From: Thermodesulfovibrionia bacterium
GTDB taxonomy: Bacteria > Nitrospirota > Thermodesulfovibrionia > UBA6902
Direction: 5' to 3'
Length of the DNA: 64,000 nucleotides
Assembly (NCBI GenBank): GCA_947259645.1
Contig: CAMYND010000012.1
Location: forward strand, 20,793-84,792
Shown one piece after another: positions 5,778 to 31,559 of this stretch. Within the stretch, counting starts at the first letter, position 1. Every line of letters begins with the position of its first letter. Below the pieces are notes generated by a model that saw only the letters and a program-made list of their open reading frames with translations, was not told where the DNA came from and searched no databases. A program made the position numbers and the translations under genes.

Positions 5778-6284
5778 ATGAAAATAAGAAAACCTCAGAT
5801 GAGTAATACGAGAAAAAGCATGGATTCAACAGCTGATCCCTACCTGACAGCTGAAAAAATAAACGGTGACGCAGTTTGTAAAAAATGCCAGGCTGTTTAT
5901 CATAATAAAAGATGGTCAGCTGATCAGGATTTATATAAAAATATAAAGGAGCAGAAAAATATACATCTGGTTCTTTGTTCTGCATGCAGGAAAGTAAAAG
6001 ACAATTTCCCGGGAGGAATATTAAAAATTAAAGGCGATTTCTACTCTGAGCATGAGGAAGATATTATGAACCTTATCAGGAATGAAGAAAAGCGGGCACA
6101 GGGTTTTAACCCCCTTGAGAGGATAATGGAGATAAGCACTACCCCGGCCGGGGTGGAAATCACCACAACAAATGAAAAACTCACGCAGAAAATAGGAAAG
6201 AGTATACAGAGAGCCTACCAGGGAAGGCTTCAATATAAATGGTCTGATGGCACCAAATTGTTACGGGCAGAGTGGCAGAGATAA
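5778..6284 (+). CDS. Hypothetical zinc-ribbon protein (CxxC...CxxC)
   Basis: 168 aa with CKKCQAVYHNKRW ... LCSACRK, i.e. two CxxC pairs forming a treble-clef-like metal site. No confident family assignment. Confidence 0.4.
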   Translation: MKIRKPQMSNTRKSMDSTADPYLTAEKINGDAVCKKCQAVYHNKRWSADQDLYKNIKEQKNIHLVLCSACRKVKDNFPGGILKIKGDFYSEHEEDIMNLIRNEEKRAQGFNPLERIMEISTTPAGVEITTTNEKLTQKIGKSIQRAYQGRLQYKWSDGTKLLRAEWQR

Positions 6285-6359
6285 ACAGTTTGGGTAAAAG
6301 AAAAAATCGAAATAATGGTATGGATAGTATGAGTTTCATACAGAATCAGCAATAACCTG

Positions 6360-7313: not shown

Positions 7314-7317
7314 GGCC

Positions 7318-8328
7318 CTATTTCCAGACACCTTCAATTGCTCCCTTGCAGCTTGGGCAGGCATTGTTTGTAATGGTGTTCTGCAGCACCTTGAAGCCAT
7401 ATCGTTCAACTGCGAGAGTATTACATGAAGGACAATAGGTGTTTTCTGATCCTCTGCCGGGCAGATTGCCTTCATAAATGTATTTCAGGCCCTTCTTTTT
7501 CCCGATATCACCTGCATGCCTGATGCTTTCAATTGTTGTTGGCGGCTTGTCTTTGAGCAGATATGTCGGGTAAAAACGGCTTACATGCCAGGGAATTGCG
7601 GTGTCAACAGAGCTGATAAAATTCACTATCTCGTCCAGGTCTTTATCTGAGTCATTATGGTCAGGAATGATGAGCGTCGTGACTTCAACCCAGACCCCCA
7701 GCTCTTTCATCAATTTAATTGTGTTCTGAACAGGTCTGAGACGTGCACCGCAAATGTTTTTGTAAAACATGTCGCTTCCCTTCAAGTCAATATTATTGGC
7801 GTCAAGGTAAGGGGCAATAATTCTGGCAGCTTCAGCGCTGGTATACCCGTTGCTGACAAAGATATTTTTTATCCCATTTTCATGGGCCAGTTTTGCACAG
7901 TCGAACGCAAATTCGAAAAAAATCGTCGGTTCTGTATAGGTGTAGGATATGCTTTTACAGTTATTCTCCAGGGCCGCCTCGACCACCTCTTCGGGCGTGG
8001 TCGCGCTGCCGGGGATCGAGAACGCGCCTTTTTCCGGGAATTGTGATATTTCATAATTCTGACAATGCTGGCATTTGAAATTACAGCCAGCAGTGGCAAT
8101 GGACAGGGATGAGGATTCGGGGAGGAAGTGGAAGAGTGGTTTCTTTTCAATGGGGTCAATGTTGAGAGATATCAGTTTTCCGTATACCAGGCTGTACAAG
8201 GTACCATCCCTGTTTTCACGAACTGCACATATTCCGCGGTCTCTGTTATGAATGAGGCAGTTATGAGCACACAAATGGCATCGTACATCAGTACCCTCCA
8301 GTTTTTCATAGATCATTGCTTCTTTCAT
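7318..8328 (-). CDS. AmmeMemoRadiSam-system radical SAM enzyme (PflA-like activase family)
   Basis: 336 aa. N-terminal Cys cluster (RCHLCAHNCLI...GICAVREN), a radical SAM CxxxCxxC-type motif (GCNFKCQHCQN) and a C-terminal CPSC...CPSC zinc ribbon, matching the AMMECR1/MEMO1-associated radical SAM family. Confidence 0.7.
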   Translation of the reverse strand: MKEAMIYEKLEGTDVRCHLCAHNCLIHNRDRGICAVRENRDGTLYSLVYGKLISLNIDPIEKKPLFHFLPESSSLSIATAGCNFKCQHCQNYEISQFPEKGAFSIPGSATTPEEVVEAALENNCKSISYTYTEPTIFFEFAFDCAKLAHENGIKNIFVSNGYTSAEAARIIAPYLDANNIDLKGSDMFYKNICGARLRPVQNTIKLMKELGVWVEVTTLIIPDHNDSDKDLDEIVNFISSVDTAIPWHVSRFYPTYLLKDKPPTTIESIRHAGDIGKKKGLKYIYEGNLPGRGSENTYCPSCNTLAVERYGFKVLQNTITNNACPSCKGAIEGVWK

Positions 8329-8436
8329 AATTCAATTATATCAGGATGAACAATAATGTAAATAAACTTCGCTCCGCTGTGATATTATCTCAGATATAAA
8401 GAGAGCCTATGGGAATGAGTAGCTGTTATTTTGTAA

Positions 8437-8464
8437 TTGACAAACTTCCTCACTCTGGTAGAAT
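8437..8464 (+). promoter_or_regulatory. Putative sigma70 promoter (TTGACA-N16-TAGAAT) in the divergent region upstream of the rubrerythrin-like gene pair
   Basis: ttgacaaacttcctcactctggtagaat at 8437-8464; consensus -35, near-consensus -10, about 175 nt upstream of the 8640 start. Confidence 0.3.
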
Positions 8465-8639
8465 TCTTAGAAGAGATCATTATGATTTATATCATAGATG
8501 ATATGTGTAACTCATTGTAATATTAGAATGTAAAGAGTTTTTTGAATATAGGTTTTGGTAGAAAGATACATAAGGATTTCAGATCTGATATTTTTTCCTG
8601 TTCCTGATATGATCAGGAGTTGAAAAGGAGATTAAATGT

Positions 8640-9140
8640 ATGATTACCGGAAATGAAGATATGCGCGGGGCTTTGATTGAAGCTTTTCTGATGGAAAAGG
8701 GCACGAAGATATTTTATGCTGAGGCAGCTGAAAAGGCTGTGAAGCCCGAGATCAAGAAGACATTTGAAAAGCTGGCAAAGTGGGAAGAAAAGCATATGGA
8801 TTTTATTCGTTATCTCTATCAGTCCATGGAGGGTGGATTAGAGTTTAAGAGCTTTGATGACTTTGCAACAAAAGCAGCTTCTCCGGAAACAGAAGCGGGA
8901 ATCCCTATTGAAGAGCTGAACGCAAAGCTTGAAAAATATCTCTACACAGATGAAAAAGGGGCACTGAACCTGGCGTTGAAAATCGAAGGGAAGGCATATA
9001 ACCATTACCGCAACCTTGCCGAGAAAGCAGCTGACTCCGGCGCCCAGGTCATTTTTAAGGAGATGGTTGAGCAGGAAACCATGCATATTCAGGAGTTACA
9101 GAAGTTGAAGGCAGAACATTTTGACGCCAACGAACATTAA
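8640..9140 (+). CDS. Rubrerythrin-family ferritin-like diiron protein (no rubredoxin domain)
   Basis: 166 aa. ExxH-type diiron motifs (EKGTKIFYAEAAE ... EEKHMDFI; EGKAYNHYRNLAE ... QETMHIQEL) are typical of the four-helix-bundle rubrerythrin/ferritin-like fold. RBS aaaaggag. Confidence 0.7.
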   Translation: MITGNEDMRGALIEAFLMEKGTKIFYAEAAEKAVKPEIKKTFEKLAKWEEKHMDFIRYLYQSMEGGLEFKSFDDFATKAASPETEAGIPIEELNAKLEKYLYTDEKGALNLALKIEGKAYNHYRNLAEKAADSGAQVIFKEMVEQETMHIQELQKLKAEHFDANEH

Positions 9141-9159
9141 AAAACGGAGGTAAGATTTT

Positions 9160-9645
9160 ATGAACGCAATGGAAGTCGCAAAGAAAATGGAAACAGATGC
9201 AATACGTTTTTACGCGGAGGCTGCTGAGAAAACGCAGCATCCTGCAGGGAAAAAGATGTTTCAGACGATCGTAAAAGATGAAAAGAGACATTTGGAACTT
9301 GTCACGAATATGCTCAAAGGAATGGATGTGCATGTCGGGGATGTCCATCCCATCAAGAATGTGCAGACAGTCTTTGAAGAAATGAAAGATGAAATGATGG
9401 AGAGGGTAAAGGCCACATCTGATGATCTTGAAGCCTTTAAAATCGGAATGGAGATGGAGAAGGAAGGGTTGGAATTTTATAAAAAGCTCCTTTCAGAAGC
9501 AAAAACTGAAAAAGAGAAAGAAATCTATACAAAACTGATGCATGAAGAAGAAGAGCATTACAAGATATTTGCCAATTCATATGAGTTTCTTAACGATACA
9601 GGAAACTGGTACATGTGGGATGAACACACCATTGTTGAGGGATGA
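9160..9645 (+). CDS. Rubrerythrin-family ferritin-like diiron protein (tandem paralog)
   Basis: 161 aa. ETDAIRFYAEAAE ... DEKRHLEL and EKEGLEFYKKL ... EEEHYKIF diiron motifs. RBS ggaggt. Confidence 0.7.
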   Translation: MNAMEVAKKMETDAIRFYAEAAEKTQHPAGKKMFQTIVKDEKRHLELVTNMLKGMDVHVGDVHPIKNVQTVFEEMKDEMMERVKATSDDLEAFKIGMEMEKEGLEFYKKLLSEAKTEKEKEIYTKLMHEEEEHYKIFANSYEFLNDTGNWYMWDEHTIVEG

Positions 9646-9719
9646 TGCCCTGCATCAGCAGGCATTTCTGTAATCAGTTTCTCTTCGATGATTTGTATCT
9701 AAGTAATGGAGGATAGATC

Positions 9720-9968
9720 ATGGCATATTCCAATGTCGCTTTAAAAGATAAAATAATGGAGATGTATCCGGAAATAAGCCAACATGCCATATCTGTGGGT
9801 CTGAACTACAGCGATGACAAAGACGCCTATGTCGTGAAATTCAGGAAGAACCATCATGAACTGGAAACGTTTATCGACAAGAAAGATGCCGATGAATGTC
9901 TGAATGGAGTGAAGTGTATACATCTTGGGGTGAAAATCGGGGAATTTGTCAAAAACTTTGAGTCTTAG
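9720..9968 (+). CDS. Small hypothetical protein (82 aa) preceding the DsrC-like gene
   Basis: Good RBS (ggagg) and compact spacing within the operon. No family recognised. Confidence 0.35.
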   Translation: MAYSNVALKDKIMEMYPEISQHAISVGLNYSDDKDAYVVKFRKNHHELETFIDKKDADECLNGVKCIHLGVKIGEFVKNFES

Positions 9969-9979
9969 GGGGGTGCCGA

Positions 9980-10309
9980 ATGGGGATTATAGAATATGGA
10001 GACGTAAAAATTGAACTTGACGATGAAGGATATCTGAAGAATTTTGATGACTGGAACGAAAAAATGGCCTGCGGTCTTGCGGAACATGCTGGTGTTGATG
10101 AGCTGTCCAAGGAGAGAATGGAAGTGATAAAGTTCATGAGGGACTACTACAGGCAGTATAGTGCTTTCCCGATTCTAAACTCAGTCTGTCGGAATATTCA
10201 TCAGCCGAAAGATTGTGTCAATGAAGATTTTGTTGACCCGGTGGTTGCCTGGAAAATTGCGGGACTGCCAAAACCCTCAGAGGAAGTCATATCATATCTA
10301 AAGCGATGA
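9980..10309 (+). CDS. TusE/DsrC/DsvC-family protein lacking the conserved C-terminal cysteines
   Basis: 109 aa. DDEGYLKNFDDWNE... (compare TusE DTEGYLKESSQWSE), HW-like EVIKFMRDYY, and KIAGLPKP near the C-terminus (compare TusE KIAGLPKPVKCI, DsrC PKPTGCV), but the tail is PKPSEEVISYLKR with no Cys. Confidence 0.75.
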   Translation: MGIIEYGDVKIELDDEGYLKNFDDWNEKMACGLAEHAGVDELSKERMEVIKFMRDYYRQYSAFPILNSVCRNIHQPKDCVNEDFVDPVVAWKIAGLPKPSEEVISYLKR

Positions 10310-10319
10310 GAGGTGAATA

Positions 10320-10619
10320 TTGAAAAACATGTTACGGTATCCCATATATTTGACACTATTATTGTGCATGATCGCTCTACTGATCATTCCCTTTGACGGA
10401 ATGGCGGAGGGGCCGGATGAAGACAGGAGCAGTGAGAATGCTCTTTTTCAGCAGAAGTGCAGTTTATGCCACAGTATTGAGCGGCCCACATCAAAAAGAA
10501 AATCAGAAAATGGCTGGAGAGAAACGGTCATGAGAATGAAGAACGTCAATGGATGTCCACTATCTGAGGAGGAGGCAGAGCGCATTATAAGATACCTCAG
10601 TGATACACGTGGTAAATAG
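10320..10619 (+). CDS. Small secreted monoheme c-type cytochrome
   Basis: Single CxxCH heme-binding motif (QQKCSLCHS). N-terminal signal peptide YPIYLTLLLCMIALLIIPFDGMA. A distal Met ligand is plausible (VMRMKNV). TTG at 10320 or ATG at 10329 could be the start. Confidence 0.65.
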   Translation: MKNMLRYPIYLTLLLCMIALLIIPFDGMAEGPDEDRSSENALFQQKCSLCHSIERPTSKRKSENGWRETVMRMKNVNGCPLSEEEAERIIRYLSDTRGK

Positions 10620-10680
10620 AATCATCAGGAAATGACAGCTGGTCTTTCAATAAAGCTAAACAGGCAATAAGGAGTGAGCA

Positions 10681-11157
10681 ATGAAGAAAACAGCCAAACA
10701 ACCAGGGGCTGGAGCAAAAGAAAGAAAATTTATCCCGAAGGTTTCTTCAAAAAATGTACAGGCTAAACAGGACACCCGGATAACTAAGAGTAAGAATGTA
10801 TCTCAAGGGACAGATGATAAAATCTCTCCTTCAGGACAAAACAGGGCTGTTGCAGACGGACTTAAAAAACAGTACTTGAAATCAATGAAGTGCAGGGTGA
10901 CGTTTAAGCTTCCGAAAGAAGCAGCGCCTGGCGCGGACAGGGTCACGCTTGTTGGTGATTTCAATAACTGGAACCTTACGGAAGCAGAAATGAAAAAACT
11001 GAAAAGCGGAGATTTCAAACTGACCCTTGCTCTCCCCTGTGACAGAGAGTATCGATTCAAATACCTTATAGATTCGACAAAGTGGGAAAATGACTGGTGC
11101 GCCGATAAATACATTCCCAGTCCCTTTGGTGGAGAGGATTCTGTTGTTGTAGTTTGA
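10681..11157 (+). CDS. Protein with a lysine-rich disordered N-terminus and a CBM48/AMPK-beta-like (E-set) domain
   Basis: 158 aa. C-terminal domain VTLVGDFNNWNLTEAEMKKLKSGDFKLTLALPCDREYRFKYLIDSTKWENDW carries the GDFNNW ... YxFKYxVDGxW signature of isoamylase-N/AMPK1_CBM domains. Paralog at 19770. Confidence 0.55.
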   Translation: MKKTAKQPGAGAKERKFIPKVSSKNVQAKQDTRITKSKNVSQGTDDKISPSGQNRAVADGLKKQYLKSMKCRVTFKLPKEAAPGADRVTLVGDFNNWNLTEAEMKKLKSGDFKLTLALPCDREYRFKYLIDSTKWENDWCADKYIPSPFGGEDSVVVV

Positions 11158-11273
11158 ATAAAAGCAGGCTAATTATCTTTTGCTGAATTTGATAAAAACG
11201 TAATTCACCATGATGAGAACAGCGGACAGGATAGTGGACAGAGTTGCAATCAGGAGAGCGCGTTAAAGAAAAG

Positions 11274-13253
11274 ATGAACAGACTTGCCAACGAAAAGTCA
11301 GCCTACCTTCAACATTCATCGAAACAAAAAATTGACTGGTATCCCTGGTCGGAAGAGGCCTTTGAACGCTCCAGGAATGAGGACAAACCCCTGTTTTTGA
11401 GCTCGGGTGCGGTCTGGTGCCACTGGTGTCATGTTATGGCAAAGGAGTGCTTCTTCGATGACGAGATAGCACGGCTGTTAAATGAGAACTTCATAAGCAT
11501 TAAACTTGACAGGGATGAACGACCGTCCATAGACCGGAGATATCAGATGGCAGTTTCAGCCATGGGGTCCGGTGGAGGATGGCCCTTATCTGTTTTTTTA
11601 ACCTCTGACAAGAAACCATTTTACGGAGGCACCTACTTTCCCCCTGAGGACAAAATGGGACGGCCCGGGCTCAAGAAGGTCTTAAGGGCTGTCAACGACC
11701 TTTACCGGAACAAGAGAGAGGAAGTAGCTGAGTATTCTGATAAAGTGATCACCACCATAAAAGTTCAGGCTGAAGGTCATGGAGATATTGAAGAGAAACA
11801 GCTCGATTCAGCTGTAACAACAATGTTATCAGAATATGATTCAGAGAACGGAGGTTTTGGAACTGCCCCCAAATTTCCGATGCCAGGTGCCCTGGAGTTC
11901 TTGTTAAACAGGTATTCTCTTACACAGGACAGTTCCATCGGTCATTGTGTAGAAAAAACACTGAAGGCGATGGCAGCCGGCGGTATGTATGACCACGTCG
12001 GAGGAGGTTTTCACCGGTACTCAACTGACGAGTCCTGGATTATTCCACATTTTGAAAAAATGGCAGAGGACAATGCCTGGCTTTTGCGTAATTACCTCAA
12101 TGCTTCATTAATATTCAATGACAGACAGTTTAAGGATACTGCCCTGGGAATTCTCAGTTTTACCATCAATGTACTGTCTGACCCTGAAGGGGGATTTTAC
12201 ATGAGTCAGGATGCTGATGTAACGCCTGACGATGAAGGAGGATATTTCACATGGACAGACCAGGATTTTAAACGAGTACTGAATGAAGAGGAATATGCTG
12301 TCCTGTCTCAACATCTTCTCAGTGACAACGGTTGCATGCATCATGACAAAAGCAAGAAAGTCCTGTTTATTGTGAAAAACAGGCCCCAGCTATCAGAAAT
12401 CACCGGAAGCAGTGAGGATGACCTGTCGAAGATAATTGAATCGGGAAGAGCGAAACTGCTCATGGAGCGCAACAAAAGGGAAACACCCTATATAGACAAG
12501 ACGTTATATACATCAATTAACGGCATGTACATTTCAGCCTTTTTTCTCGCTTACCGGTATCTTGACGATCCCGGGTTGAGAGATTTTGCGGTAAAAAGCC
12601 TGGATAAGATAATGAAGTTAAACTATATTAATAAGGAACTTTATCATACAGAGAATGTTAAGGCCTTGCTGGATGATTATGTTTACCTGGCAGATGCCCT
12701 TGTGTCGGCATATGAGGCAACAGGTTCGGATTCTTATGTTGCTCAGGCTGAGGAGCTTATACAGCTGTGCATGAACAGATTCCTGGACAAAGATAACGGG
12801 GGTTTTTATGACAGCGATGATCATATGCTCGGTGTGAAAATAAAAGGGATACAGGATATCCCCCATCCGTCATCCAATGCACTTGTTGTAATGCTGCTGC
12901 TCAGGTTGCACAGCATAACAGGAAACAGTATCTATCATGACCATGCAAAAAAAACACTGCAGGCCTTTTCATTGATTGCAGAGGACCTGGGTATTCACGC
13001 GGGATACTATTACAGTGCCCTTGATGCATACAGCAATACAATAAAGCTTGAAGTCTGCGCGTCTCCGGACAGTGATTTGACGAGTACTGCAAGGTCTGCA
13101 TTTGCGCCATATCTGAATATTCGCTATGGGGAAGACAATGGCTACGTTACTGCCTGTTATAAAGAAACGTGCGGAGCTCCATTTCACGATGGAAAAAGCC
13201 TGGGACAGTACCTGAGGAGCGGAAAATACCTTGATTCACCAGTCAAGCATTAA
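11274..13253 (+). CDS. Thioredoxin-domain protein YyaL/DUF255 (SPATA20-like: thioredoxin fold plus six-hairpin glycosidase-like domain)
   Basis: MNRLANEKSAYLQHSSKQKIDWYPWSEEAFERSRNEDKPLFLSSGAVWCHWCHVMAKECF is the hallmark N-terminus of DUF255, including the CxxC motif. Start moved to the Met of MNRLA (ORF-track start 11244). Confidence 0.85.
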   Translation: MNRLANEKSAYLQHSSKQKIDWYPWSEEAFERSRNEDKPLFLSSGAVWCHWCHVMAKECFFDDEIARLLNENFISIKLDRDERPSIDRRYQMAVSAMGSGGGWPLSVFLTSDKKPFYGGTYFPPEDKMGRPGLKKVLRAVNDLYRNKREEVAEYSDKVITTIKVQAEGHGDIEEKQLDSAVTTMLSEYDSENGGFGTAPKFPMPGALEFLLNRYSLTQDSSIGHCVEKTLKAMAAGGMYDHVGGGFHRYSTDESWIIPHFEKMAEDNAWLLRNYLNASLIFNDRQFKDTALGILSFTINVLSDPEGGFYMSQDADVTPDDEGGYFTWTDQDFKRVLNEEEYAVLSQHLLSDNGCMHHDKSKKVLFIVKNRPQLSEITGSSEDDLSKIIESGRAKLLMERNKRETPYIDKTLYTSINGMYISAFFLAYRYLDDPGLRDFAVKSLDKIMKLNYINKELYHTENVKALLDDYVYLADALVSAYEATGSDSYVAQAEELIQLCMNRFLDKDNGGFYDSDDHMLGVKIKGIQDIPHPSSNALVVMLLLRLHSITGNSIYHDHAKKTLQAFSLIAEDLGIHAGYYYSALDAYSNTIKLEVCASPDSDLTSTARSAFAPYLNIRYGEDNGYVTACYKETCGAPFHDGKSLGQYLRSGKYLDSPVKH

Positions 13254-13277
13254 CACCAATTTGATACAGGAGGAGTA

Positions 13278-13742
13278 ATGAGCAACTATTCTATTCGTGA
13301 AATCATAGAGCAGGCGATTCAGACAGAGAAGATGGGCTACACGTTTTATACGTCAATGGCTGATAGATTCAAGGATAATATTAAGGTCAAAGAGTTATTT
13401 GATCTGCTTGCCGGTGAGGAACTGAAGCATGAAAAAACCTTTACTGAACTTGAAGGCAGACTTGCTGATGAGCAGCTTGAAAACTGGGACGAAGCTTCTC
13501 AGTATATGAAAGCGATTGTCGAGTCCGAGTTTTTTCTCGGAAGCAAAAAAACCTTGCCTGCAACGGCAGATTTTAAAGATGCCCGTGAGGTAGTTCAGTA
13601 TGCGATGAGCTTTGAAAAAGATACGTTGTTATACTTTCAGGGCTTGAAGGAATCAGTAAAGGACAGTGACTTTATCAAAGAAATTATCAATGAAGAGAAG
13701 AGTCACATCTTAAAGCTCCATGAATTAAAGAACAGCCTTTGA
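13278..13742 (+). CDS. Rubrerythrin-family ferritin-like protein (third copy)
   Basis: 154 aa with EKMGYTFYTSMAD ... EELKHEKTF and EKDTLLYFQGL ... EEKSHILKL ExxH motifs. RBS aggagg. Confidence 0.65.
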   Translation: MSNYSIREIIEQAIQTEKMGYTFYTSMADRFKDNIKVKELFDLLAGEELKHEKTFTELEGRLADEQLENWDEASQYMKAIVESEFFLGSKKTLPATADFKDAREVVQYAMSFEKDTLLYFQGLKESVKDSDFIKEIINEEKSHILKLHELKNSL

Positions 13743-13790
13743 GATGATTTTGACTTCTTGATGTACCTCGTGCGGGAAGGACTTAATTAT

Positions 13791-15524
13791 ATGGACTATA
13801 CGATCAAAGTCGGCGGTGAAGCAGGGCAGGGTATTCAGACTATTGGCGGGACGCTCGCGAGACTCTTCGCGCGGGCCGGTTATCATGTATTTACGCATCA
13901 GGACTATGAGTCACGTGTAAGAGGGGGGCACAATTTTTATCAGGTCAGGTTTTCTGATAAACCTGTTATTGCCTCACGGATCAAAATCGATATTCTGGTT
14001 GCTTTGGACAGGGAAAGCATTGACCGCTATGAAGGTGACCTTTCTGATGAGGGACGCATAGTATATGACTCATCTTCTTTGAAGCAGAAATTCGACAAAC
14101 CTGCCTTTCTGGACATACCGTTCAGCACACTGGCGGTTGAGCAGGGCGGCAGCAAAATTATGTCTAATATTGTCGCGGTAGGGGCTGTCCTCGGTATGCT
14201 CGGGATGGACCTTGATCTGTTGAACAGTATTATTCAGGATGCCTTTAAAAAGAAAAAGGATGATATTGTCACGGGAAATATTAAAGCCGCGAAGGCCGGG
14301 CATGATTATGCTGAAACTGCCTGTGAATCCTGTTCTTATTCTGTGTCCGGCCACAGGGGCAATGATCAGCCAAAAATGCTGATCGCGGGAAATGAGGCTA
14401 TAGGGTTTGGGGCGGTAGCTTCTGGGCTGAAATTTTATTCTGCCTATCCGATGACACCATCTACCGGAATCATGAACTATATCGCAGGCAAGGAAGAAGA
14501 ATTTGGGATCATTGTTGAGCAGGCCGAGGATGAGATCGCTGCTGTAAATATGGCCCTGGGCGCCTCTTTTGCCGGGGTGAGGGCGATGACCGGTACGTCA
14601 GGCGGTGGATTTGCGCTCATGACTGAAGGCTTGTCTCTGGCTGGTATAACAGAGACCCCCGTTGTTATTGCCCTTGCTCAAAGGCCCGGGCCGGCAACGG
14701 GACTGCCTACCCGGACAGAACAGGGGGACCTTCAGTTTGCACTTCATGCCGGACATGGTGAATTTCCCCGCGTTATATTTGCTCCGGGAACACCGGAAGA
14801 GGCCTTTTATCTGACCAACAAGGCCTTTGAACTAACGGAGAAATATCAGGTTCCGGTCATTATCATGACAGACCAGTATCTGGCAGATTCCCAATGGACC
14901 TATGATAAATTTGATTTAACCAAAGTAGCGTACACTGATTACCGTCTTAGTGGTGAGAAACTCAGGAACATGACTGAATATAAACGATATGCCTATACGG
15001 AAACAGGCATTACCCCTCTGGCAATTCCCGGAGAATCTGAGCACCTGGTAGTCGCTGACAGTGATGAACACGATGAGGAAGGACATATCATAGAGGATGG
15101 AGAAACCAGGGTATCCATGATGAAGAAAAGATTATTTAATAAGTTACCCCATATCAGGCGGGAGATAGCCCCTCCGCTTTACTATGGCAGTGAAGACGCA
15201 GATATTGTTTTAACAGGCTGGGGATCGACCTATGGCGTACTAAAAGAGACCGTTGATCTTCTCTCAGGGAGCCAGAGTATCGCCATGCTTCATTTCAGTG
15301 AACTATACCCCATGCCCCTGACTGATAAGATGGACTATGTAAGCATTTTGAAGAAAGCCGGACGTACGGTTTGTATAGAAAATAACGCTACCGGACAGTT
15401 TGCCAGACTTCTTCGCGCAGAGACCGGCGTTGAGTTTAGCTCAGGAATAAATAAATATGACGGCAGACCCTTTACCGTAGATGAACTGACAGGAGAATTG
15501 AATGCCCTCTTTACAGGACTATAA
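13791..15524 (+). CDS. korA: 2-oxoacid:ferredoxin oxidoreductase alpha subunit (fused gamma-alpha, KorA/OFOR two-subunit type)
   Basis: N-terminal gamma-like domain (MDYTIKVGGEAGQGIQTIGGTLARLFARAGYHVF) followed by the alpha domain (IAGNEAIGFGAVASGLKFYSAYPMTPSTGIM...). Start chosen at the Met of MDYTIKVGG after RBS gggaagga (ORF-track start 13758). Confidence 0.85.
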   Translation: MDYTIKVGGEAGQGIQTIGGTLARLFARAGYHVFTHQDYESRVRGGHNFYQVRFSDKPVIASRIKIDILVALDRESIDRYEGDLSDEGRIVYDSSSLKQKFDKPAFLDIPFSTLAVEQGGSKIMSNIVAVGAVLGMLGMDLDLLNSIIQDAFKKKKDDIVTGNIKAAKAGHDYAETACESCSYSVSGHRGNDQPKMLIAGNEAIGFGAVASGLKFYSAYPMTPSTGIMNYIAGKEEEFGIIVEQAEDEIAAVNMALGASFAGVRAMTGTSGGGFALMTEGLSLAGITETPVVIALAQRPGPATGLPTRTEQGDLQFALHAGHGEFPRVIFAPGTPEEAFYLTNKAFELTEKYQVPVIIMTDQYLADSQWTYDKFDLTKVAYTDYRLSGEKLRNMTEYKRYAYTETGITPLAIPGESEHLVVADSDEHDEEGHIIEDGETRVSMMKKRLFNKLPHIRREIAPPLYYGSEDADIVLTGWGSTYGVLKETVDLLSGSQSIAMLHFSELYPMPLTDKMDYVSILKKAGRTVCIENNATGQFARLLRAETGVEFSSGINKYDGRPFTVDELTGELNALFTGL

Positions 15525-16353
15525 AGGACAGGATCCGGCGTGGTGCCCGGGATGCGGTAATTTTGGAATACTGAATACATTCAGGGATGCAATGGTTGAA
15601 CTGGATATGAATCCCCATCAGTTTACGGTTGTCTCCGGTATTGGACAGGCTGCCAAATTTCCCCATTATATAAAATGCAACACCTTCAATGGCCTTCACG
15701 GGAGGGCACTTCCGGTAGCCACCGGTATTCGACTGGCAAACCATGAACAACCGGTCATGGTATTCACCGGTGATGGAGACTGTTACGGTGAGGGAGGTAA
15801 TCATTTCATCCACACCATGAGAAGGAACATTAATGTGAAGCTTTTTGTCCATGATAATCAGATCTACGGCCTAACAAAGGGCCAGGCATCACCAACCAGC
15901 ATGGAAGGCATGAAAACCAAAAACCAGCCCTTTGGTGTTTTCTCGGAGCAGATGAGTCCGATGGCTCTTGCAGTGGCAATGGACTGCAGTTTTGTCGCAC
16001 GGACATTCGCTGCTGACAGTGAGCATCTCAAGGCAATGATCAAGGCTGCTCTCAACCATAATGGTTTTACCCTGGTAGACATATTGCAACCCTGTGTCAC
16101 CTTTAATAAAATAAACACATTTCAATGGTACAAAGAGAGAGTTTATCATATCGAACCTGACTATGATCCTGAAAACAGGGTTCAGGCTTTTCAACGGGCA
16201 CTGGAGTGGGGTGACCGGATACCGCTCGGAATCCTCTACAAAAACAACCGGCCAGCACTTGAGGATAGAATACCGATAATATCAAATAAGAGTCTGTTAA
16301 AACAGCAGCTTAACCCCTTGAAGCTCGAAGAAACTTTAAGGGAATTTTACTAA
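15502..16353 (+). CDS. korB: 2-oxoacid:ferredoxin oxidoreductase beta subunit (TPP-binding)
   Basis: 283 aa. WCPGCGNFGIL N-terminus plus the GDGD TPP-binding motif (VFTGDGDCYGEGGNHFIH). Overlaps korA by 23 nt (translational coupling). Confidence 0.85.
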   Translation: MPSLQDYKGQDPAWCPGCGNFGILNTFRDAMVELDMNPHQFTVVSGIGQAAKFPHYIKCNTFNGLHGRALPVATGIRLANHEQPVMVFTGDGDCYGEGGNHFIHTMRRNINVKLFVHDNQIYGLTKGQASPTSMEGMKTKNQPFGVFSEQMSPMALAVAMDCSFVARTFAADSEHLKAMIKAALNHNGFTLVDILQPCVTFNKINTFQWYKERVYHIEPDYDPENRVQAFQRALEWGDRIPLGILYKNNRPALEDRIPIISNKSLLKQQLNPLKLEETLREFY

Positions 16354-16374
16354 TCCCCAAAAGGAGGTAGTTAA

Positions 16375-16704
16375 ATGGCAACAAAAAAGAAGGCAGCTGG
16401 AAAGAAGAAAACAGTCGCCAAGAAGAAAACAGCCGCGAAAAGGAAAACAGCTGCGAAGAGGAAAACAGCACCAAAAAAGAAGGCCTATGTCTGTTCTACC
16501 TGCGGAGCAGGCACATCATCAAAGGGGCATCTCTGCACACCGGTAGTTGCTGACGAGGCATATTCCTGTGATTACTGCGGGAAGGTGGTTGGAGATCCCA
16601 GACATGTATGCAAGCCAAAGGCCGCAAAGATCTCTTATGTCTGCGGCGGATGCGGAAGAACAGCAGCAAAGTCAACAGAAGTATGTATGCCTAAAAAGAT
16701 ATAA
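16375..16704 (+). CDS. Small protein with a histone-H1-like lysine/alanine-rich N-terminal tail and three tandem Y-x-C-x2-C-G-x7-8-C-x-P cysteine repeats
   Basis: 109 aa: MATKKKAAGKKKTVAKKKTAAKRKTAAKRKTAPKKK + YVCSTCGAGTSSKGHLCTP / YSCDYCGKVVGDPRHVCKP / YVCGGCGRTAAKSTEVCMP. Strong RBS aaaaggaggt. Confidence 0.5.
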   Translation: MATKKKAAGKKKTVAKKKTAAKRKTAAKRKTAPKKKAYVCSTCGAGTSSKGHLCTPVVADEAYSCDYCGKVVGDPRHVCKPKAAKISYVCGGCGRTAAKSTEVCMPKKI

Positions 16705-16733
16705 GGGACTGTAAGCTTCTCTGCACTGCCGCT

Positions 16734-16774
16734 TGACCTCTTTTCAGGAAAAGCGGCAGTGCATATACCTCCGC
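16734..16774. terminator. Perfect 13-bp inverted repeat hairpin downstream of the Cys-repeat gene (possible terminator; no U-tract)
   Basis: tgcactgccgctt-(15 nt loop)-aagcggcagtgca. Confidence 0.25.
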
Positions 16775-16946
16775 GATATCACTGTCGTATCCGGGTACAC
16801 GGGATATTCAGGTATGTTCAACGCAACCATTAATTGATGCTACTCAATCTGTTCCTGATCCTGGTGGGTATAATTATTTGCCCGGCATGATAAATTAAGA
16901 TATACTAGGGCATAAAATTAGACTTGAAAAGGAATGAGTCAGTAGA

Positions 16947-17135
16947 ATGAATGAAATCATTAACAGTATTACGAATTACGCCCAGTCAAATACTGGAGCT
17001 GCTGTGGCAGCTGGATTTCTTATGCTTGTTCTTCTGATCCGGCGAACCAAACTGTTTTTTATTCTGCTTGCCATAGCGATTGCCGGGGTAGGGATAATGA
17101 AAATCTTTGATAAAATTTCTGCTACGGGGTTATGA
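16947..17135 (+). CDS. Small hypothetical membrane protein (62 aa, two predicted TM helices)
   Basis: MNEIINSITNYAQSNTGAAVAAGFLMLVLLIRRTKLFFILLAIAIAGVGIMKIF... is hydrophobic. An RBS-like aaaaggaatgag lies upstream. Confidence 0.3.
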   Translation: MNEIINSITNYAQSNTGAAVAAGFLMLVLLIRRTKLFFILLAIAIAGVGIMKIFDKISATGL

Positions 17136-17181
17136 AGCAATATATGATATTCACATTAATGTGCGCTGACAGGAGCGAAGG

Positions 17182-18057
17182 ATGATACAAAAGATAACCG
17201 ATATATTTGAGAAAAAAAAGAGAACCTTTTCATTTGAGTTTTTTCCGCCCAAGACCCGGAAGGGAATAGAGAACCTGTACAGGACAGCTGAAGAACTGAA
17301 CAAGCTGGGACCGGATTTTGTGTCAGTAACCTACGGAGCAGGTGGATCATCACGGGGAACGACCATGGAAATCTGTGTTGAGCTGCAAAAGCGATTTGAT
17401 ATTTCTGTTATACATCATCTCACCTGTGTGGGACACAGCCAGGATGATCTGAAAGGCATTCTCGACACGCTGAAAACCAATGAAATAAAAAATGTCCTGG
17501 CATTAAGAGGTGACCCGCCAAAAGGAGTTGAAGACTGGCAGCCGTCGCCTGATGGTTTTGAATACTGCTATCAGTTAAATGATCTCATACTCAGCAGGTA
17601 TGAAGACTTTTTCAGTATCGGTGTTGCCGGTTTTCCTGAAGGGCATATAAACTGCCCGGATAAAGATACAGACACAAAGTATCTGAAAATAAAGATGGAC
17701 CATGGCGGTGAATTTATTGTTACGCAGCTTTTCTTTGATAATACTATTTACTCGGAATACCTTGACAGGCTGAGCAGGGCAGGGGTAACAGCCCGTGTTC
17801 TGCCGGGGATCCTCCCGATCACAAGCTACGACGGTCTGATTAAATTCTGCAATATGTGCGGTGCAACGGTTCCGGATGAAGTACATAAGATATTTAAGCC
17901 CCTGAGCGGTGATGATGAGGCAACATACAAGGCAGGTGTTGACTTTGCTGTAAGGCAGTGTAAGGACCTTCTTGAGCGGGGTGCTCCGGGCATACATTTC
18001 TTTTCGCTGAACAAGGTAGAACCAGCAACAGAAATATGGAACAAACTGGGGCTTTAG
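17182..18057 (+). CDS. metF: Methylenetetrahydrofolate reductase
   Basis: 291 aa. SFEFFPPKT ... VSVTYGAGGSSRGTT ... HLTCVG motifs are characteristic of MetF. Confidence 0.9.
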   Translation: MIQKITDIFEKKKRTFSFEFFPPKTRKGIENLYRTAEELNKLGPDFVSVTYGAGGSSRGTTMEICVELQKRFDISVIHHLTCVGHSQDDLKGILDTLKTNEIKNVLALRGDPPKGVEDWQPSPDGFEYCYQLNDLILSRYEDFFSIGVAGFPEGHINCPDKDTDTKYLKIKMDHGGEFIVTQLFFDNTIYSEYLDRLSRAGVTARVLPGILPITSYDGLIKFCNMCGATVPDEVHKIFKPLSGDDEATYKAGVDFAVRQCKDLLERGAPGIHFFSLNKVEPATEIWNKLGL

Positions 18058-18334
18058 GCAAAGGGTCTGCGGGATTGGCCCTGTCCTGTTATCAATGTTT
18101 TGCAATGACCTCTTCAAGGCTCATGAAACATATCTATTCTTCATCACTAAAAGGTGACCTTGTCAACTGTGTTCAATCATCTGTGTTCAATTATCTGAAA
18201 TGAGCATAATTTTATCAAAATAGGGATAATCCCTTGCCTCATCTGATCAAAAGGGATAAAATAACGTCTGGTAAAAATGAACCCTGCTCTTCATGACCTG
18301 TTCTCATGTCATGATTCACGACGACGTATAATTA

Positions 18335-24274: not shown

Positions 24275-25492
24275 TCAGCTGAACTTCCCGTGGTACTCTT
24301 TTACTTTTCTGGCAAAATCCTTCGCAAACTCATAACACTCTGATTCATCCTCCATGGATGGTCTTGACAGCACCTGCATCCCGGGCTCAACAACTTCAAG
24401 TTTCATTCTCTTGAACTCTTCGTAGGCTTCCTTTACTGCTCCGCCGCCCCATCCATAACTGCCAAATGCTCCGGTTATCCTGTTCTTTGGCCGAAGACCT
24501 CTGAGGTGAGTAAGAAATTCCGCAATTGATGGAAAAAGGATATTGTTCAGCGTGGGGCTGCCAATGAGACAACCTCGGGCCTTCCAGAACTCTTTTATCG
24601 CCTCGCTCATTGGAGAAGCCCTCAACTTAATGACTTTGCAATCAACACCTTCATCTTTTATCCCCTGCATAATCGGGATGGTCATTCTCTCCGTGCTGTG
24701 CCACATTGTGTCGTAAATAACAGCAATACTCAGGTTTGCCTTCCCATTAGCAAGATCGAGATACCTCTGTAAAATACCACCCGGATCTTTCCTCCAGATA
24801 ATACCGTGATCAGGGGCTATCATGTCTATTTCAAGACCGAGTTTCTGAACTTCAGCTATTTTCACCTTGATAAGCTGACCAAAGGGCATCAGAATGTTCG
24901 CGTAATAATCTACAACAGCGTCATCAAGCTCAGACCGTGAAGCACATTCTATAAATTCATCATCAAATCTGGACGCTGTAGCCAGGTGCTGTCCAAAGGC
25001 GTCCTGGGAAATAAGAAGTTTTGCTTCCTTAACATAAGTCATCATTGAGTCAGGCCAGTGGAGCATGGGTGTTTCAAGAAAGGTCAGCGTATATTTTCCG
25101 GTACTGATCGCGTCTCCTGTCTTAACAGTTTTAATATTCCATTTGGAGATATCAAACTGCTTCTCCAGGCCCTTTCGGCCTTTTTCTGTTATATAAATCG
25201 TTGCCTCAGGCGCAAGCTCCAATATTTTGTCAATGCTGCTTGCGTGGTCAGGTTCGATATGGTTGATGACCAGATTAGTGATTTTGGCCGGATCAGTAAT
25301 AGTGCGGATATTTTTTATGGTATGCCGTGAAAAGTCTGACTTTACCGTGTCTACAAGAGTGATCTGTTCATCCATGATCAGGAAGTTGTTGTAGGTTGTT
25401 CCGCTTGGTGTTACATACCCGTGAAAGTCACGTATTGCCCAGTCAATAGCACCTACCCAGTAAATATCAGGTTTAATCTCATATGATGTCAC
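24275..25492 (-). CDS. fprA: FprA-family A-type flavodiiron protein (rubredoxin:O2/NO oxidoreductase)
   Basis: Metallo-beta-lactamase-like diiron motif HIEPDHASS plus a C-terminal flavodoxin domain. Start re-assigned to GTG at 25492 (MTSYEIKPDIYWVGAIDW, the typical FprA N-terminus) after RBS ggaggt. ORF track extends to 25561. Confidence 0.85.
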   Translation of the reverse strand: MTSYEIKPDIYWVGAIDWAIRDFHGYVTPSGTTYNNFLIMDEQITLVDTVKSDFSRHTIKNIRTITDPAKITNLVINHIEPDHASSIDKILELAPEATIYITEKGRKGLEKQFDISKWNIKTVKTGDAISTGKYTLTFLETPMLHWPDSMMTYVKEAKLLISQDAFGQHLATASRFDDEFIECASRSELDDAVVDYYANILMPFGQLIKVKIAEVQKLGLEIDMIAPDHGIIWRKDPGGILQRYLDLANGKANLSIAVIYDTMWHSTERMTIPIMQGIKDEGVDCKVIKLRASPMSEAIKEFWKARGCLIGSPTLNNILFPSIAEFLTHLRGLRPKNRITGAFGSYGWGGGAVKEAYEEFKRMKLEVVEPGMQVLSRPSMEDESECYEFAKDFARKVKEYHGKFS

Positions 25493-25668
25493 AGTTACCT
25501 CCAGGTCAATAACTAAATTAATATTTGAACGTATAGTAAACCGCTGCAGAATAAAACTCAATTCAGATTCTGCACAATGTCAACTATATTATTAATGAGT
25601 ATAGCGAATCAATGATAAATATCATAGCAGACGTTGTGGTTCTCCTGCCACAATTAAAAGTATTACCA

Positions 25669-31518: not shown

Positions 31519-31559
31519 AAGGTAATAAAAAATACTGTATTTAATGTGGAGGAATATAG

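What the first reader, a model, noticed from the sequence alone, without database searches (positions are those of the whole stretch)
8640..16704. Unusual redox cluster: three short rubrerythrin-like proteins, a Cys-less DsrC/TusE homolog, a small monoheme cytochrome c, a DUF255 thioredoxin, KorAB and lysine-rich-tailed small proteins
The genes run on one strand with short spacers and look operon-like. There are two tandem ferritin-like diiron proteins (8640, 9160) and a third at 13278. The 82-aa unknown protein and the DsrC/TusE-family protein (9980) follow the tandem pair. The DsrC-like protein retains the family core (DDEGYLKNFDDW..., KIAGLPKP) but ends ...PKPSEEVISYLKR, so it has neither of the two C-terminal cysteines needed for sulfur relay or trisulfide chemistry. 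Such Cys-less DsrC paralogs are thought to be regulatory. It is followed by a secreted CxxCH cytochrome, a CBM48-domain protein, YyaL/DUF255, KorA/KorB (two-subunit 2-oxoacid:ferredoxin oxidoreductase) and a Lys-rich Cys-repeat protein. The combination suggests an oxidative-stress or redox-sensing module wired to ferredoxin-level metabolism, but no characterised system matches this gene order.
Basis: partly seen in the sequence, partly recalled or inferred. Interest (0 to 1): 0.55.

Follow-up and report, generated by a model that had tools for sequence, protein, structure and literature searches.

The report
Oxygen-defence operon with new DsrC-like pair
This is an eleven-gene oxygen-stress defence operon of an anaerobic Nitrospirota bacterium, ordinary in kind but carrying an uncharacterised, conserved pair of small cysteine proteins: an 82-residue protein and a DsrC look-alike that lacks the sulfur-carrying cysteines.

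Summary
The DsrC-like protein truly lacks both C-terminal cysteines. This is a family trait, not a sequencing error: 119 of 120 relatives lack them, all have Trp at the CysB position, and all have an internal CX8C pair.

The gene order recurs in Thermodesulfovibrionia (Nitrospirota) genomes at only 45-83% protein identity. The slot holding the cytochrome c is variable.

New findings:
1. The 82-aa protein belongs to an unannotated family with two conserved cysteines (CX5C). It sits next to erythrin-type diiron proteins, SOD, the DsrC-like gene, DUF255, nitroreductase or KorAB in most species.
2. A natural fusion of the 82-aa protein and the DsrC-like protein, found in two independent assemblies, lies in an operon SOD-fusion-KorA-KorB. 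This argues that the two proteins work together.
3. A 16-bp palindrome, TATGATTTATATCATA, lies just after the -10 of the operon promoter. It recurs in the window only upstream of a flavodiiron gene. In relatives it lies upstream of SOD, desulfoferrodoxin, nitroreductase and cbb3-oxidase-related genes.

The biochemical role of the pair is inferred, not shown.

The parts
8437..8464 (+). Sigma-70-like promoter (TTGACA, 16 nt spacer, TG-extended TAGAAT).
   Evidence: 11 of 12 matches, the best + strand site in 5500-19000. Sequence read. This is a consensus match only; the transcription start was not mapped.
8481..8496 (.). 16-bp palindromic operator TATGATTTATATCATA, centred about 17 nt downstream of the predicted start.
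   Evidence: the core ATGAT-N4-ATCAT occurs twice in 64 kb against 0.22 expected; the same motif, with conserved flanks and centre (consensus TATGATWTAWATCATA), lies upstream of Rbr-like, SOD, 82-aa, nitroreductase and other redox genes in relatives.
8640..9140 (+). Erythrin-type diiron protein 1 (166 aa).
   Evidence: PF02915 2e-13; all six diiron ligands kept and no rubredoxin domain.
9160..9645 (+). Erythrin-type diiron protein 2 (161 aa).
   Evidence: nearest solved relatives are 2fzf and MJ0754.
9720..9968 (+). 82-aa protein 's82', an uncharacterised family with invariant C60 and C66 (CX5C). Proposed partner of the DsrC-like protein.
   Evidence: no Pfam, NCBIfam or PDB sequence match; 226 homologues; the source names that exist are all Nitrospirota/Thermodesulfovibrionia; 285 representatives at 50% identity; the two cysteines are conserved in 91-92% of representatives. 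AF2 pLDDT 76, alpha-alpha-beta3-alpha-alpha, no significant fold match; natural fusion with a DsrC-like domain.
9980..10309 (+). DsrC-fold protein (109 aa) without CysA or CysB, with invariant internal C70 and C79 (CX8C) and near-invariant C31.
   Evidence: AF2 pLDDT 89, TM 0.73-0.75 to solved DsrC structures such as 2v4j_C and 1sau.
10320..10619 (+). Small exported or membrane-anchored monohaem cytochrome c (CSLCH). Occupies the variable slot and is not conserved.
   Evidence: present only in the window, L049 and L052. The slot holds a rhodanese in L013, DJ-1 in L015 and nothing in L001.
10681..11157 (+). CBM48-domain protein with a Lys-rich N-terminus. Conserved partner gene just upstream of DUF255.
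   Evidence: 65-74% identity in L013, L049, L001, L078 and L015, always directly before DUF255.
11244..13253 (+). DUF255/YyaL-type thioredoxin-fold protein (CHWC motif) with a six-hairpin C-terminal domain.
   Evidence: PF03190 1e-66; 7tkv 2e-83. CHWC read from the translation.
13278..13742 (+). Erythrin-type diiron protein 3 (154 aa). Forms a conserved trio with KorA and KorB.
   Evidence: (TM1526/1vjx 4e-13). Rbr3 lies next to KorAB in 8 loci.
13758..15524 (+). KorA, the alpha/gamma-fused subunit of a two-subunit 2-oxoacid:ferredoxin oxidoreductase.
   Evidence: TIGR03710 702 bits; 6n2n 8e-87 and 5b46 2e-86.
15502..16353 (+). KorB, the TPP-binding beta subunit. Overlaps korA by 23 nt.
16375..16704 (+). 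Lys/Ala-rich tail followed by three repeats of C-x2-C-G-x7-H/E-x-C-x-P. A rare protein and a candidate metal or electron-carrier module.
   Evidence: only 7 homologues. In P0242, P0243 and P0244 the Lys-rich tail is replaced by a 2x[4Fe-4S] ferredoxin domain; present after korB in L013 (83% identity).
16722..16763 (+). Stem-loop (18-nt arms, 89% complementary) 18 nt after the last stop codon. Probable 3' end of the transcript.
   Evidence: It has no T-run, so it is not a textbook intrinsic terminator.
25611..25626 (.). Second copy of the operator (AATGATAAATATCATA), in the divergent gap between a flavodiiron gene and an acylphosphatase gene.
24275..25561 (-). Flavodiiron protein (O2/NO reductase). 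Putative member of the same regulon.
   Evidence: ODP plus Flavodoxin_1 domains; matches PRK11921 at 393 bits, below the 635-bit equivalog cut-off.

Best explanation
The region 8437-16763 is one operon. It is the oxygen/ROS-defence island of an anaerobic Thermodesulfovibrionia (Nitrospirota) bacterium.

Regulation (inferred): the operon is transcribed from a sigma-70-like promoter. A still unidentified regulator binds the palindrome TATGATTTATATCATA immediately downstream of the -10, which is a repressor-type position. The core TGAT-N4-ATCA resembles CRP/FNR-family boxes. The same box marks a flavodiiron gene 17 kb away. In relatives it marks SOD, desulfoferrodoxin, nitroreductase and cbb3-oxidase-related genes, so the operon belongs to an O2-responsive regulon.

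Enzyme logic (inferred from the families):
- Three erythrin-type diiron proteins reduce peroxide or O2, or hold iron.
- The CHWC thioredoxin-fold DUF255 protein, with its CBM48 partner, repairs or reduces thiols.
- A two-subunit OFOR, the type found in oxygen-exposed organisms, keeps 2-oxoacid oxidation running and supplies low-potential electrons. The Cys-repeat protein may be their carrier.

The new element is the pair of the 82-aa CX5C protein and the DsrC-fold protein. I propose that they form a complex. I propose that this complex uses the internal CX8C of the DsrC-like protein and the CX5C of the 82-aa protein, four invariant cysteines in all, as a dithiol or metal/Fe-S redox site. It would not use the missing C-terminal arm cysteines, and it would act in the oxygen response next to OFOR and SOD rather than in sulfur relay.

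Shown: gene content, conservation, the fusion, the motif and its genomic contexts. Inferred: co-transcription, repression, every enzymatic role, and the chemistry of the pair.
For: - Genes and domains.
- The Cys-less tail is a family trait, with invariant C70 and C79.
- DsrC fold.
- Synteny Rbr1-Rbr2-s82-DsrC-like-[variable slot]-CBM48-DUF255-Rbr3-KorA-KorB at 45-83% identity.
- Of 69 species-representative loci usable for counting, 42 have at least one of Rbr-like, SOD, AhpC, DJ-1, DUF255, DsrC-like, KorAB or rhodanese within 5 kb of the 82-aa gene, and 14 have a DsrC-like gene directly adjacent.
- Further neighbours are nitroreductase (16 loci) and AhpF-like (6 loci).
- Natural fusion P0255, identical in two independent assemblies, in the operon SOD-fusion-KorA-KorB with stop/start overlap.
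- Operator: 2 sites in the window against 0.22 expected; 16 exact-core sites in 1.29 Mb, with flanks and centre conserved beyond the searched pattern. At least 13 lie upstream of redox or oxygen genes, including flavodiiron, desulfoferrodoxin, SOD and CcoG-like genes. Weaker matches lie next to cbb3 FixO-like genes..
- Tight spacing, a single strong promoter and a 3' hairpin.
Against: - There are no expression data, so co-transcription and oxygen induction are inferred.
- A weak terminator-like hairpin lies between Rbr2 and the 82-aa gene at 9649-9662.
- The regulator is unidentified. No CRP/FNR or Fur-family gene was found beside any site or among the window ORFs scanned.
- The 82-aa gene lacks an adjacent DsrC-like gene in about 80% of species, so the pairing is facultative or acts in trans.
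- More distant Cys-less DsrC-like genes (L007-L011) sit in unrelated contexts.
- The fusion-bearing loci L093 and L094 lack the operator.
- No structure of the complex could be computed, so convergence of the four cysteines is untested.
- C31 is lost in the fusion protein.
Confidence: 0.7

Rival explanations
1. The Cys-less DsrC-like protein, alone or with the 82-aa protein, is itself the transcription factor. It would bind the palindrome and autoregulate the operon, with its internal cysteines serving as the redox sensor.
For: - The DsrC fold contains a helix-turn-helix-like motif. After the DsrC family, the next (non-significant) fold matches are winged-helix or HTH repressors such as LexA and ArsR.
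- From my own knowledge, not checked here: Allochromatium DsrC was reported to bind dsr promoter DNA (Grimm et al. 2010), and Cys-less family members have been suggested to be regulatory.
- No other regulator gene was found next to the operator sites.
- The operator precedes operons that contain the gene (window, L013, L083).
Against: - Operator sites also occur in loci with no DsrC-like gene within 10 kb (L015, L020, L024, L035, L071).
- The HTH fold matches have E of 0.9 or more.
- A 16-bp palindrome with a TGAT-N4-ATCA core fits dimeric CRP/FNR-type regulators better.
- Fusion to the 82-aa protein and tight coupling to korAB look more like an enzyme accessory than a repressor.
Confidence: 0.12
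2. The core is a sulfur-trafficking or Fe-S repair module rather than an oxygen-defence module. The DsrC-like protein would carry persulfide on its internal cysteines, working with rhodanese and the DUF255 thioredoxin to rebuild damaged clusters (for example in OFOR) or to handle reactive sulfur species.
For: - A rhodanese gene follows the DsrC-like gene in L013. Rhodanese, a YgaP-like membrane protein and DJ-1 follow it in L004, L073 and L084.
- Rhodanese lies within 5 kb in 6 of 69 loci.
- The protein belongs to the TusE/DsrC sulfur-relay family.
- A sulfur-transport gene lies near one operator site.
Against: - The residues that carry sulfur in every characterised family member are absent.
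- Rhodanese is absent from the window and from most loci.
- The most frequent neighbours are ROS enzymes.
- This reading overlaps with oxygen defence rather than excluding it.
Confidence: 0.12
3. The cluster is a chance juxtaposition of independently transcribed housekeeping genes, with no functional unit.
For: - The composition is modular and varies between genomes.
- Promoter-like matches are no more frequent than in shuffled sequence.
- Two spacers of 74-86 nt could hold internal promoters.
Against: - The same order of nine to ten genes is kept at 45-83% protein identity in at least four other species.
- There is a gene fusion, and korA and korB overlap.
- The operator is shared across genomes.
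Confidence: 0.04

Closest known systems
PerR-type oxidative-stress regulons of strict anaerobes: Desulfovibrio vulgaris rbr/rdl/ahpC and Clostridium acetobutylicum reverse rubrerythrin/flavodiiron/desulfoferrodoxin (recalled from my own knowledge, not checked in the library).
   Same: An anaerobe clusters and co-regulates diiron peroxidase-type proteins, SOD or SOR, flavodiiron proteins and thiol peroxidases behind a palindromic operator at the promoter.
   Different: - The operator (TATGATWTAWATCATA) is not the Fur/PerR 7-1-7 box, and no Fur-family gene is adjacent.
- The diiron proteins lack rubredoxin domains.
- The operon also carries a two-subunit OFOR, DUF255 with CBM48, and the 82-aa/DsrC-like pair, none of which is part of the described regulons.
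DsrC/TusE/RspA family (PF04358, TIGR03342).
   Same: Sequence and predicted fold match, including the conserved AGLPKP motif.
   Different: - There is no penultimate CysA and no CysB; Trp is invariant at the CysB position.
- The flexible C-terminal arm is replaced by a short predicted helix.
- There is a subfamily-specific invariant CX8C where the aligned canonical DsrC structures have Ser at the first position and Glu or Gln at the second.
- The genomic partners are oxygen-defence genes, not DsrAB or TusBCD.
Rubrerythrin and erythrin-type ferritin-like diiron proteins (nearest solved: TM1526/1vjx, 2fzf, MJ0754).
   Same: A four-helix-bundle diiron site with E, ExxH, E, ExxH.
   Different: There is no rubredoxin domain, so an external electron donor is needed. 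Three paralogues diverged to 24-26% identity sit in one operon.
Two-subunit 2-oxoacid:ferredoxin oxidoreductases (Magnetococcus OGOR 6n2n; Sulfolobus OFOR 5b46).
   Same: The domain architecture and strong similarity.
   Different: The substrate is unknown. Here the genes are embedded in a stress operon and repeatedly preceded by an erythrin, the 82-aa gene or the fusion.
FNR/CRP-family operator (TTGAT-N4-ATCAA).
   Same: The palindrome has the same TGAT-N4-ATCA core and spacing, and it occurs upstream of cbb3-oxidase-related genes (ccoG-like and FixO-like) as FNR/FixK boxes do.
   Different: The outer bases differ (A/T swapped). The position just downstream of the -10 suggests repression. No CRP/FNR gene was identified.

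Membership tests
DsrC sensu stricto (substrate of DsrAB and DsrMK) | Penultimate C-terminal cysteine (CysA) on a flexible arm. | tested here: not met
   The protein ends ...PKPSEEVISYLKR. No tail Cys in 119 of 120 relatives.
DsrC sensu stricto (substrate of DsrAB and DsrMK) | Second cysteine (CysB) about 10 residues upstream. | tested here: not met
   Trp in 120 of 120 at that column. Alignment to 2v4j_C and 1yx3.
DsrC sensu stricto (substrate of DsrAB and DsrMK) | Genomic or functional link to dsrAB. | tested here: inconclusive
   None of the window ORFs scanned against Pfam or NCBIfam was a dsrAB or dsrMK gene, but several large ORFs were not scanned and the rest of the genome was not available.
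TusE (tRNA 2-thiouridine sulfur relay) | Conserved C-terminal cysteine that accepts persulfide from TusBCD. | tested here: not met
   Absent. NF008562 TusE equivalog score is 50.7 against a cut-off of 191.
DsrC/TusE/DsvC superfamily (PF04358/TIGR03342) | Sequence profile above the curated cut-off, and the DsrC fold. | tested here: met
   PF04358 70.9 bits (cut-off 24.9) and TIGR03342 66.4 bits (cut-off 53.5). TM 0.73-0.75 to solved DsrCs.
Rubrerythrin | Diiron four-helix bundle with E, ExxH, E, ExxH. | tested here: met
   All six ligands are invariant among the three paralogues. PF02915 is above cut-off.
Rubrerythrin | Rubredoxin-like Fe(Cys)4 domain. | tested here: not met
   The proteins are 154-166 aa and contain no Cys-x2-Cys pairs. 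The RuberyRbr equivalog scores 16.6 against a cut-off of 200.
Two-subunit 2-oxoacid:ferredoxin oxidoreductase (KorAB type) | Alpha subunit with POR (gamma) plus POR_N domains; beta subunit with TPP_enzyme_C plus PFO_beta_C domains; no delta ferredoxin subunit. | tested here: met
   No Fer4 subunit gene is present in the operon.
Two-subunit 2-oxoacid:ferredoxin oxidoreductase (KorAB type) | Substrate specificity (2-oxoglutarate versus pyruvate or broad) and oxygen tolerance. | not testable with these tools
   All equivalog models score below their cut-offs.
DUF255/YyaL thioredoxin-domain proteins | PF03190 domain with a CxxC motif, plus a six-hairpin C-terminal domain. | tested here: met
   PF03190 224 bits. 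CHWC read from the translation. 7tkv 2e-83 over residues 2-565.
Monohaem c-type cytochrome | A CxxCH haem-attachment motif and export. | tested here: met
   CSLCH and the Dehyd-heme_bind and SorB-like domains. Export is judged only from the hydrophobic N-terminus; no signal-peptide predictor was run.
CRP/FNR-regulated promoter | A TTGAT-N4-ATCAA-type box plus a cognate CRP/FNR regulator. | tested here: inconclusive
   The core TGAT-N4-ATCA is present and conserved. The outer bases differ and no regulator gene was found.

The most novel reading that the evidence does not exclude
The 82-aa CX5C protein and the Cys-less DsrC paralogue form a previously undescribed heterodimeric redox module. Their four invariant cysteines would build a shared metal/Fe-S or dithiol site. 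The module would work with the two-subunit OFOR during oxygen exposure, as electron adaptor, protector or sensor. This would mean the DsrC fold was repurposed from sulfur relay to oxygen defence.

One observation fits a site completed in trans: distant relatives of the 82-aa protein carry four cysteines of their own (C9 and C22 co-occur with C60 and C66), whereas the DsrC-associated type has only two.
Probability: 0.3. Interest if true: 0.65.

Novelty: new variant of a known kind. Interest (0 to 1): 0.5.

Why it matters
Thermodesulfovibrionia are widespread anaerobes of groundwater, sediments and hot springs that face intermittent oxygen. How they survive it is known only by analogy with Desulfovibrio and clostridia.

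This analysis contributes the following:
- It defines a conserved defence operon.
- It provides a candidate regulon motif that can be scanned in any genome of the class.
- It gives a first functional context for two 'hypothetical' families: the 82-aa CX5C protein and the Cys-less, CX8C-bearing DsrC subfamily. A natural gene fusion provides a concrete, testable interaction hypothesis for these two.

It also warns annotators. These genes are routinely labelled 'TusE/DsrC sulfur relay protein' or 'tRNA 2-thiouridine synthesizing protein E', and they should not be counted as markers of sulfur metabolism.

Tried and rejected
- Exact look-up of the window's DsrC-like protein found no contig. An identical cluster representative exists on a 114,640-bp NCBI contig, but no accession or name is attached, so the source organism is known only by its relatives.
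- The 82-aa protein has no PDB sequence match and no significant Foldseek match. Its fold stays unassigned.
- More distant Cys-less DsrC-like proteins (P0104, P0114, P0090) sit in unrelated neighbourhoods. The small ORFs near them are not homologues of the 82-aa protein.
- I looked for a regulator gene beside operator sites and in the window. I found only an ECF sigma factor in L071 and no CRP/FNR, Fur or Rrf2 gene.
- A second palindrome at 8513-8530 (CATTGTAATATTAGAATG) is shared only with L013, so it was not pursued.
- Two four-cysteine relatives of the 82-aa protein lie in unrelated contexts without a DsrC-like gene. Two loci are too few to test the idea that the site is completed in trans.
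- The fusion loci L093 and L094 have no copy of the operator.
- Literature searches for Cys-less DsrC, RspA and Thermodesulfovibrio oxidative stress found no description of this module.

Full report
**Observation**

- Three proteins hit PF02915 Rubrerythrin (8640-9140, 9160-9645, 13278-13742).
- An 82-aa protein (9720-9968) has no family match.
- A PF04358/TIGR03342 DsrC-family protein lies at 9980-10309.
- A small cytochrome c with CSLCH lies at 10320-10619.
- A CBM48 protein lies at 10681-11157.
- A DUF255 thioredoxin-fold protein with CHWC lies at 11244-13253.
- KorA and KorB lie at 13758-16353.
- A protein with a Lys-rich tail and three Cys repeats lies at 16375-16704.

The three diiron proteins are only 24-26% identical to one another. 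They keep all six iron ligands and have no rubredoxin domain, so 'erythrin-type' is the accurate label. Their nearest solved relatives are TM1526, 2fzf and MJ0754.

Spacers are 10-86 nt, and korA overlaps korB. The best promoter-like site of the region (TTGACA, 16 nt, TG-extended TAGAAT; 8437-8464) precedes the first gene. A stem-loop with 18-nt arms follows the last gene (16722-16763).

**The DsrC-like protein**

The absence of both C-terminal cysteines is not an error. In 120 cluster representatives of its closest relatives the CysB column is Trp in 120 of 120. No tail cysteine occurs except in one aberrant sequence. An internal pair, C70 and C79 (CX8C), is invariant, and C31 is present in 113 of 120. 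The canonical DsrC structures shown aligned have Ser at the first of these positions and Glu or Gln at the second.

The AlphaFold model (pLDDT 89) has the DsrC fold, with TM 0.73-0.75 to 2v4j_C, 1sau and others. Its C-terminus is a short helix instead of the flexible arm.

The protein is therefore a member of the DsrC/TusE superfamily but fails the defining tests for DsrC proper and for TusE. The few relatives that carry source names come from Nitrospirae/Thermodesulfovibrionia metagenome-assembled genomes; one more distant relative (P0104) is labelled Pseudomonadota.

**The 82-aa protein**

It has no Pfam, NCBIfam or PDB sequence match. Its model (pLDDT 76, alpha-alpha-beta3-alpha-alpha) has no significant fold match.

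It has 226 close homologues; those that carry a source name are all from Nitrospirota. It is found in 225 species-representative genome loci. A profile search finds 285 representatives at 50% identity. Two cysteines (C60, C66; CX5C) are invariant in the close family and kept in 91-92% of full-length representatives.

A divergent subgroup (21 of 85) has two further cysteines, at positions 9 and 22, that co-occur.

**Neighbourhood conservation**

The order Rbr1-Rbr2-s82-DsrC-like-[variable slot]-CBM48-DUF255-Rbr3-KorA-KorB is kept in L013 and L049. In L013 the Cys-repeat protein follows korB as it does in the window. L078, L015 and L001 keep the order in large part. Protein identities are only 45-83%.

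The variable slot holds the cytochrome c in the window and L049, a rhodanese in L013, DJ-1 in L015 and nothing in L001. The cytochrome is therefore accessory.

Of the 80 fetched species-representative loci, 69 have the 82-aa gene at least 1 kb from a contig end. Among these:
- 42 have at least one of Rbr-like, SOD, AhpC, DJ-1, DUF255, DsrC-like, KorAB or rhodanese within 5 kb.
- 14 have a Cys-less DsrC-like gene directly adjacent.
- 19 have one within 5 kb.

Clustering of all neighbours added nitroreductase (16 loci), AhpF-like (6 loci) and PAS kinases. A more distant genome has AhpC-SOD-DsrC-like-s82-YgaP-like-DJ-1-rhodanese-DUF255. Rbr3 travels with KorAB in eight loci.

**A natural fusion**

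The profile search recovered P0255 (207 aa). Residues 1-83 are the 82-aa protein. A short Glu/Lys-rich linker follows. Residues 100-193 are a DsrC-like domain that keeps the CX8C and lacks tail cysteines.

The identical protein is encoded on six contigs, including two independent assemblies (JGI 3300010288 and ENA ERZ27245459). There the operon reads SOD-fusion-KorA-KorB, with the fusion's stop overlapping the korA start.

This Rosetta-stone fusion is the strongest evidence that the two small proteins act together. It also shows that the link to the two-subunit OFOR and to superoxide defence is not peculiar to the window.

**A shared operator**

Immediately downstream of the -10 lies the palindrome TATGATTTATATCATA (8481-8496). 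The core ATGAT-N4-ATCAT occurs only twice in the 64-kb window, against 0.22 expected. The second copy (25612-25625) lies in the divergent gap upstream of a flavodiiron protein gene (24275-25561, minus strand).

In 1.29 Mb of window plus related loci there are 16 exact-core sites. My own estimate from base composition is about 2.4 expected by chance. The flanks and the centre are conserved beyond the searched pattern, giving the consensus TATGATWTAWATCATA.

At least 13 of the 16 lie upstream of the following genes:
- Rbr-like genes (L013, L020);
- SOD (L071, L083);
- the 82-aa gene standing alone (L024, L035);
- a nitroreductase heading an Rbr-s82 operon (L028);
- a recurrent unknown 145-aa gene, divergent from a flavodoxin-like reductase (L015);
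- YtxH or thioredoxin-like genes (L014, L017).

Divergent partners at these sites include desulfoferrodoxin (L020) and CcoG-like proteins (L024, L035). Weaker matches lie next to cbb3 FixO-like genes (L044).

The TGAT-N4-ATCA core and the association with cbb3-oxidase genes recall CRP/FNR-family boxes. The position after the -10 suggests repression. No regulator gene was found nearby, so the regulator is unknown.

**Interpretation**

The simplest reading is a single oxygen/ROS-defence operon that belongs to an O2-responsive regulon. The enzymatic roles below rest on established knowledge of the families, not on tests here:
- The erythrins act as peroxide or oxygen reductases or as iron buffers that need an external electron donor.
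- DUF255 with CBM48 acts as a thiol oxidoreductase.
- The two-subunit OFOR is nearest to Magnetococcus OGOR (6n2n) and Sulfolobus OFOR (5b46). I take it to be an oxygen-tolerant isoenzyme that maintains 2-oxoacid oxidation and provides low-potential electrons.
- The Cys-repeat protein after korB has only seven homologues. In three of them a 2x[4Fe-4S] ferredoxin domain replaces the Lys-rich tail. This hints at a metal-binding or electron-transfer role.

For the 82-aa/DsrC-like pair I commit to a complex that uses its four invariant cysteines as a dithiol or metal/Fe-S site and acts alongside OFOR and SOD. I rate this specific mechanism at about 0.3. The general claim of a conserved, co-regulated oxygen-defence operon with a genuine Cys-less DsrC paralogue and a partner protein I rate at about 0.7.

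**Rivals**

1. The DsrC-like protein is itself the regulator. The HTH-like fold and the lack of another candidate favour this. Against it, operator sites occur in loci without the gene, and the fold matches to HTH proteins are not significant.
2. The core is a sulfur-trafficking or Fe-S repair module. Rhodanese neighbours in some loci favour this. Against it, the sulfur-carrying residues are absent and ROS enzymes are the dominant neighbours.
3. The cluster is a chance juxtaposition. Synteny at low identity, the fusion and the shared operator contradict this.

**Novelty**

Oxidative-stress operons with diiron proteins behind a palindromic operator are a known kind in anaerobes. The new points are:
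- the specific operator;
- the inclusion of KorAB and of DUF255 with CBM48;
- the functional context and fusion evidence for two unannotated or mis-annotated small-protein families.

I found no description of this module in the literature searched.

Noticed in passing
window 24275-25626: A flavodiiron protein gene on the minus strand has the second and only other copy of the ATGAT-N4-ATCAT box in its upstream gap. That gap is shared with a divergent acylphosphatase gene (25612-25953).
   Followed up: partly
window 16375-16704; P0242-P0244: The Lys-rich Cys-repeat protein has three repeats of C-x2-C-G-x7-H/E-x-C-x-P and only seven homologues in 5.8 billion proteins. In three of them (one, P0243, is labelled Omnitrophica) the Lys-rich tail is replaced by a 2x[4Fe-4S] ferredoxin domain. 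This is a rare metal-binding domain of unknown role.
   Followed up: partly
P0248-P0397; loci L095-L098: The 82-aa family splits into a two-cysteine type (the window's type) and a four-cysteine type in which C9 and C22 co-occur. Other fusions join the domain to DUF308 or transmembrane segments (P0264, P0262), to a cytidylate-kinase-like domain (P0301) and to DUF2934 (P0257).
   Followed up: partly
L004 8136-8573, L015 5499-5930; L001 7458-7871, L017 9569-9973: Two further unannotated proteins, of about 145 aa and about 135 aa with no Pfam match, recur in the oxygen-defence islands of relatives (about 10 and 6 loci). They are sometimes directly behind the operator. Neither is present in the window.
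   Followed up: no
window 7318-8328 (-) and 5778-6284 (+): An AmmeMemoRadiSam-system radical SAM enzyme (TIGR04337, 323 bits) is transcribed divergently from the operon, with its own promoter-like site at 8362-8335. Nearby is a BCAM0308-family protein with an NMD3-like domain. A radical SAM homologue also lies near the cluster in L001 and L034.
   Followed up: no
window 8513-8530: A second palindrome, CATTGTAATATTAGAATG, lies in the 5' leader and is shared with L013 (TTGTAATATTA) but not with other relatives. The leader from the predicted start to the ATG is about 170 nt long. No Rfam family matches it at gathering threshold.
   Followed up: partly
window 19770-20177: A second small CBM48/AMPK-beta-like protein (135 aa) lies 3 kb downstream of the operon. 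It is a paralogue of the one upstream of DUF255.
   Followed up: no
window 28624-33408: Genes for a molybdopterin oxidoreductase, a four-cluster ferredoxin subunit and a DmsC-like membrane anchor. This looks like a Psr/Phs/Ttr-type respiratory reductase.
   Followed up: no
window 50124-59174 (-): A single 3016-aa ORF, not examined.
   Followed up: no
window 60821-61788: An Xre-like antitoxin with a RES-domain toxin gene pair. A DUF5615/PIN-like gene lies at 48103-48465.
   Followed up: no
one search hit table: JGI annotates many members of this Cys-less subfamily as 'tRNA 2-thiouridine synthesizing protein E'. This is probably a mis-annotation, because the catalytic cysteine is absent.
   Followed up: yes
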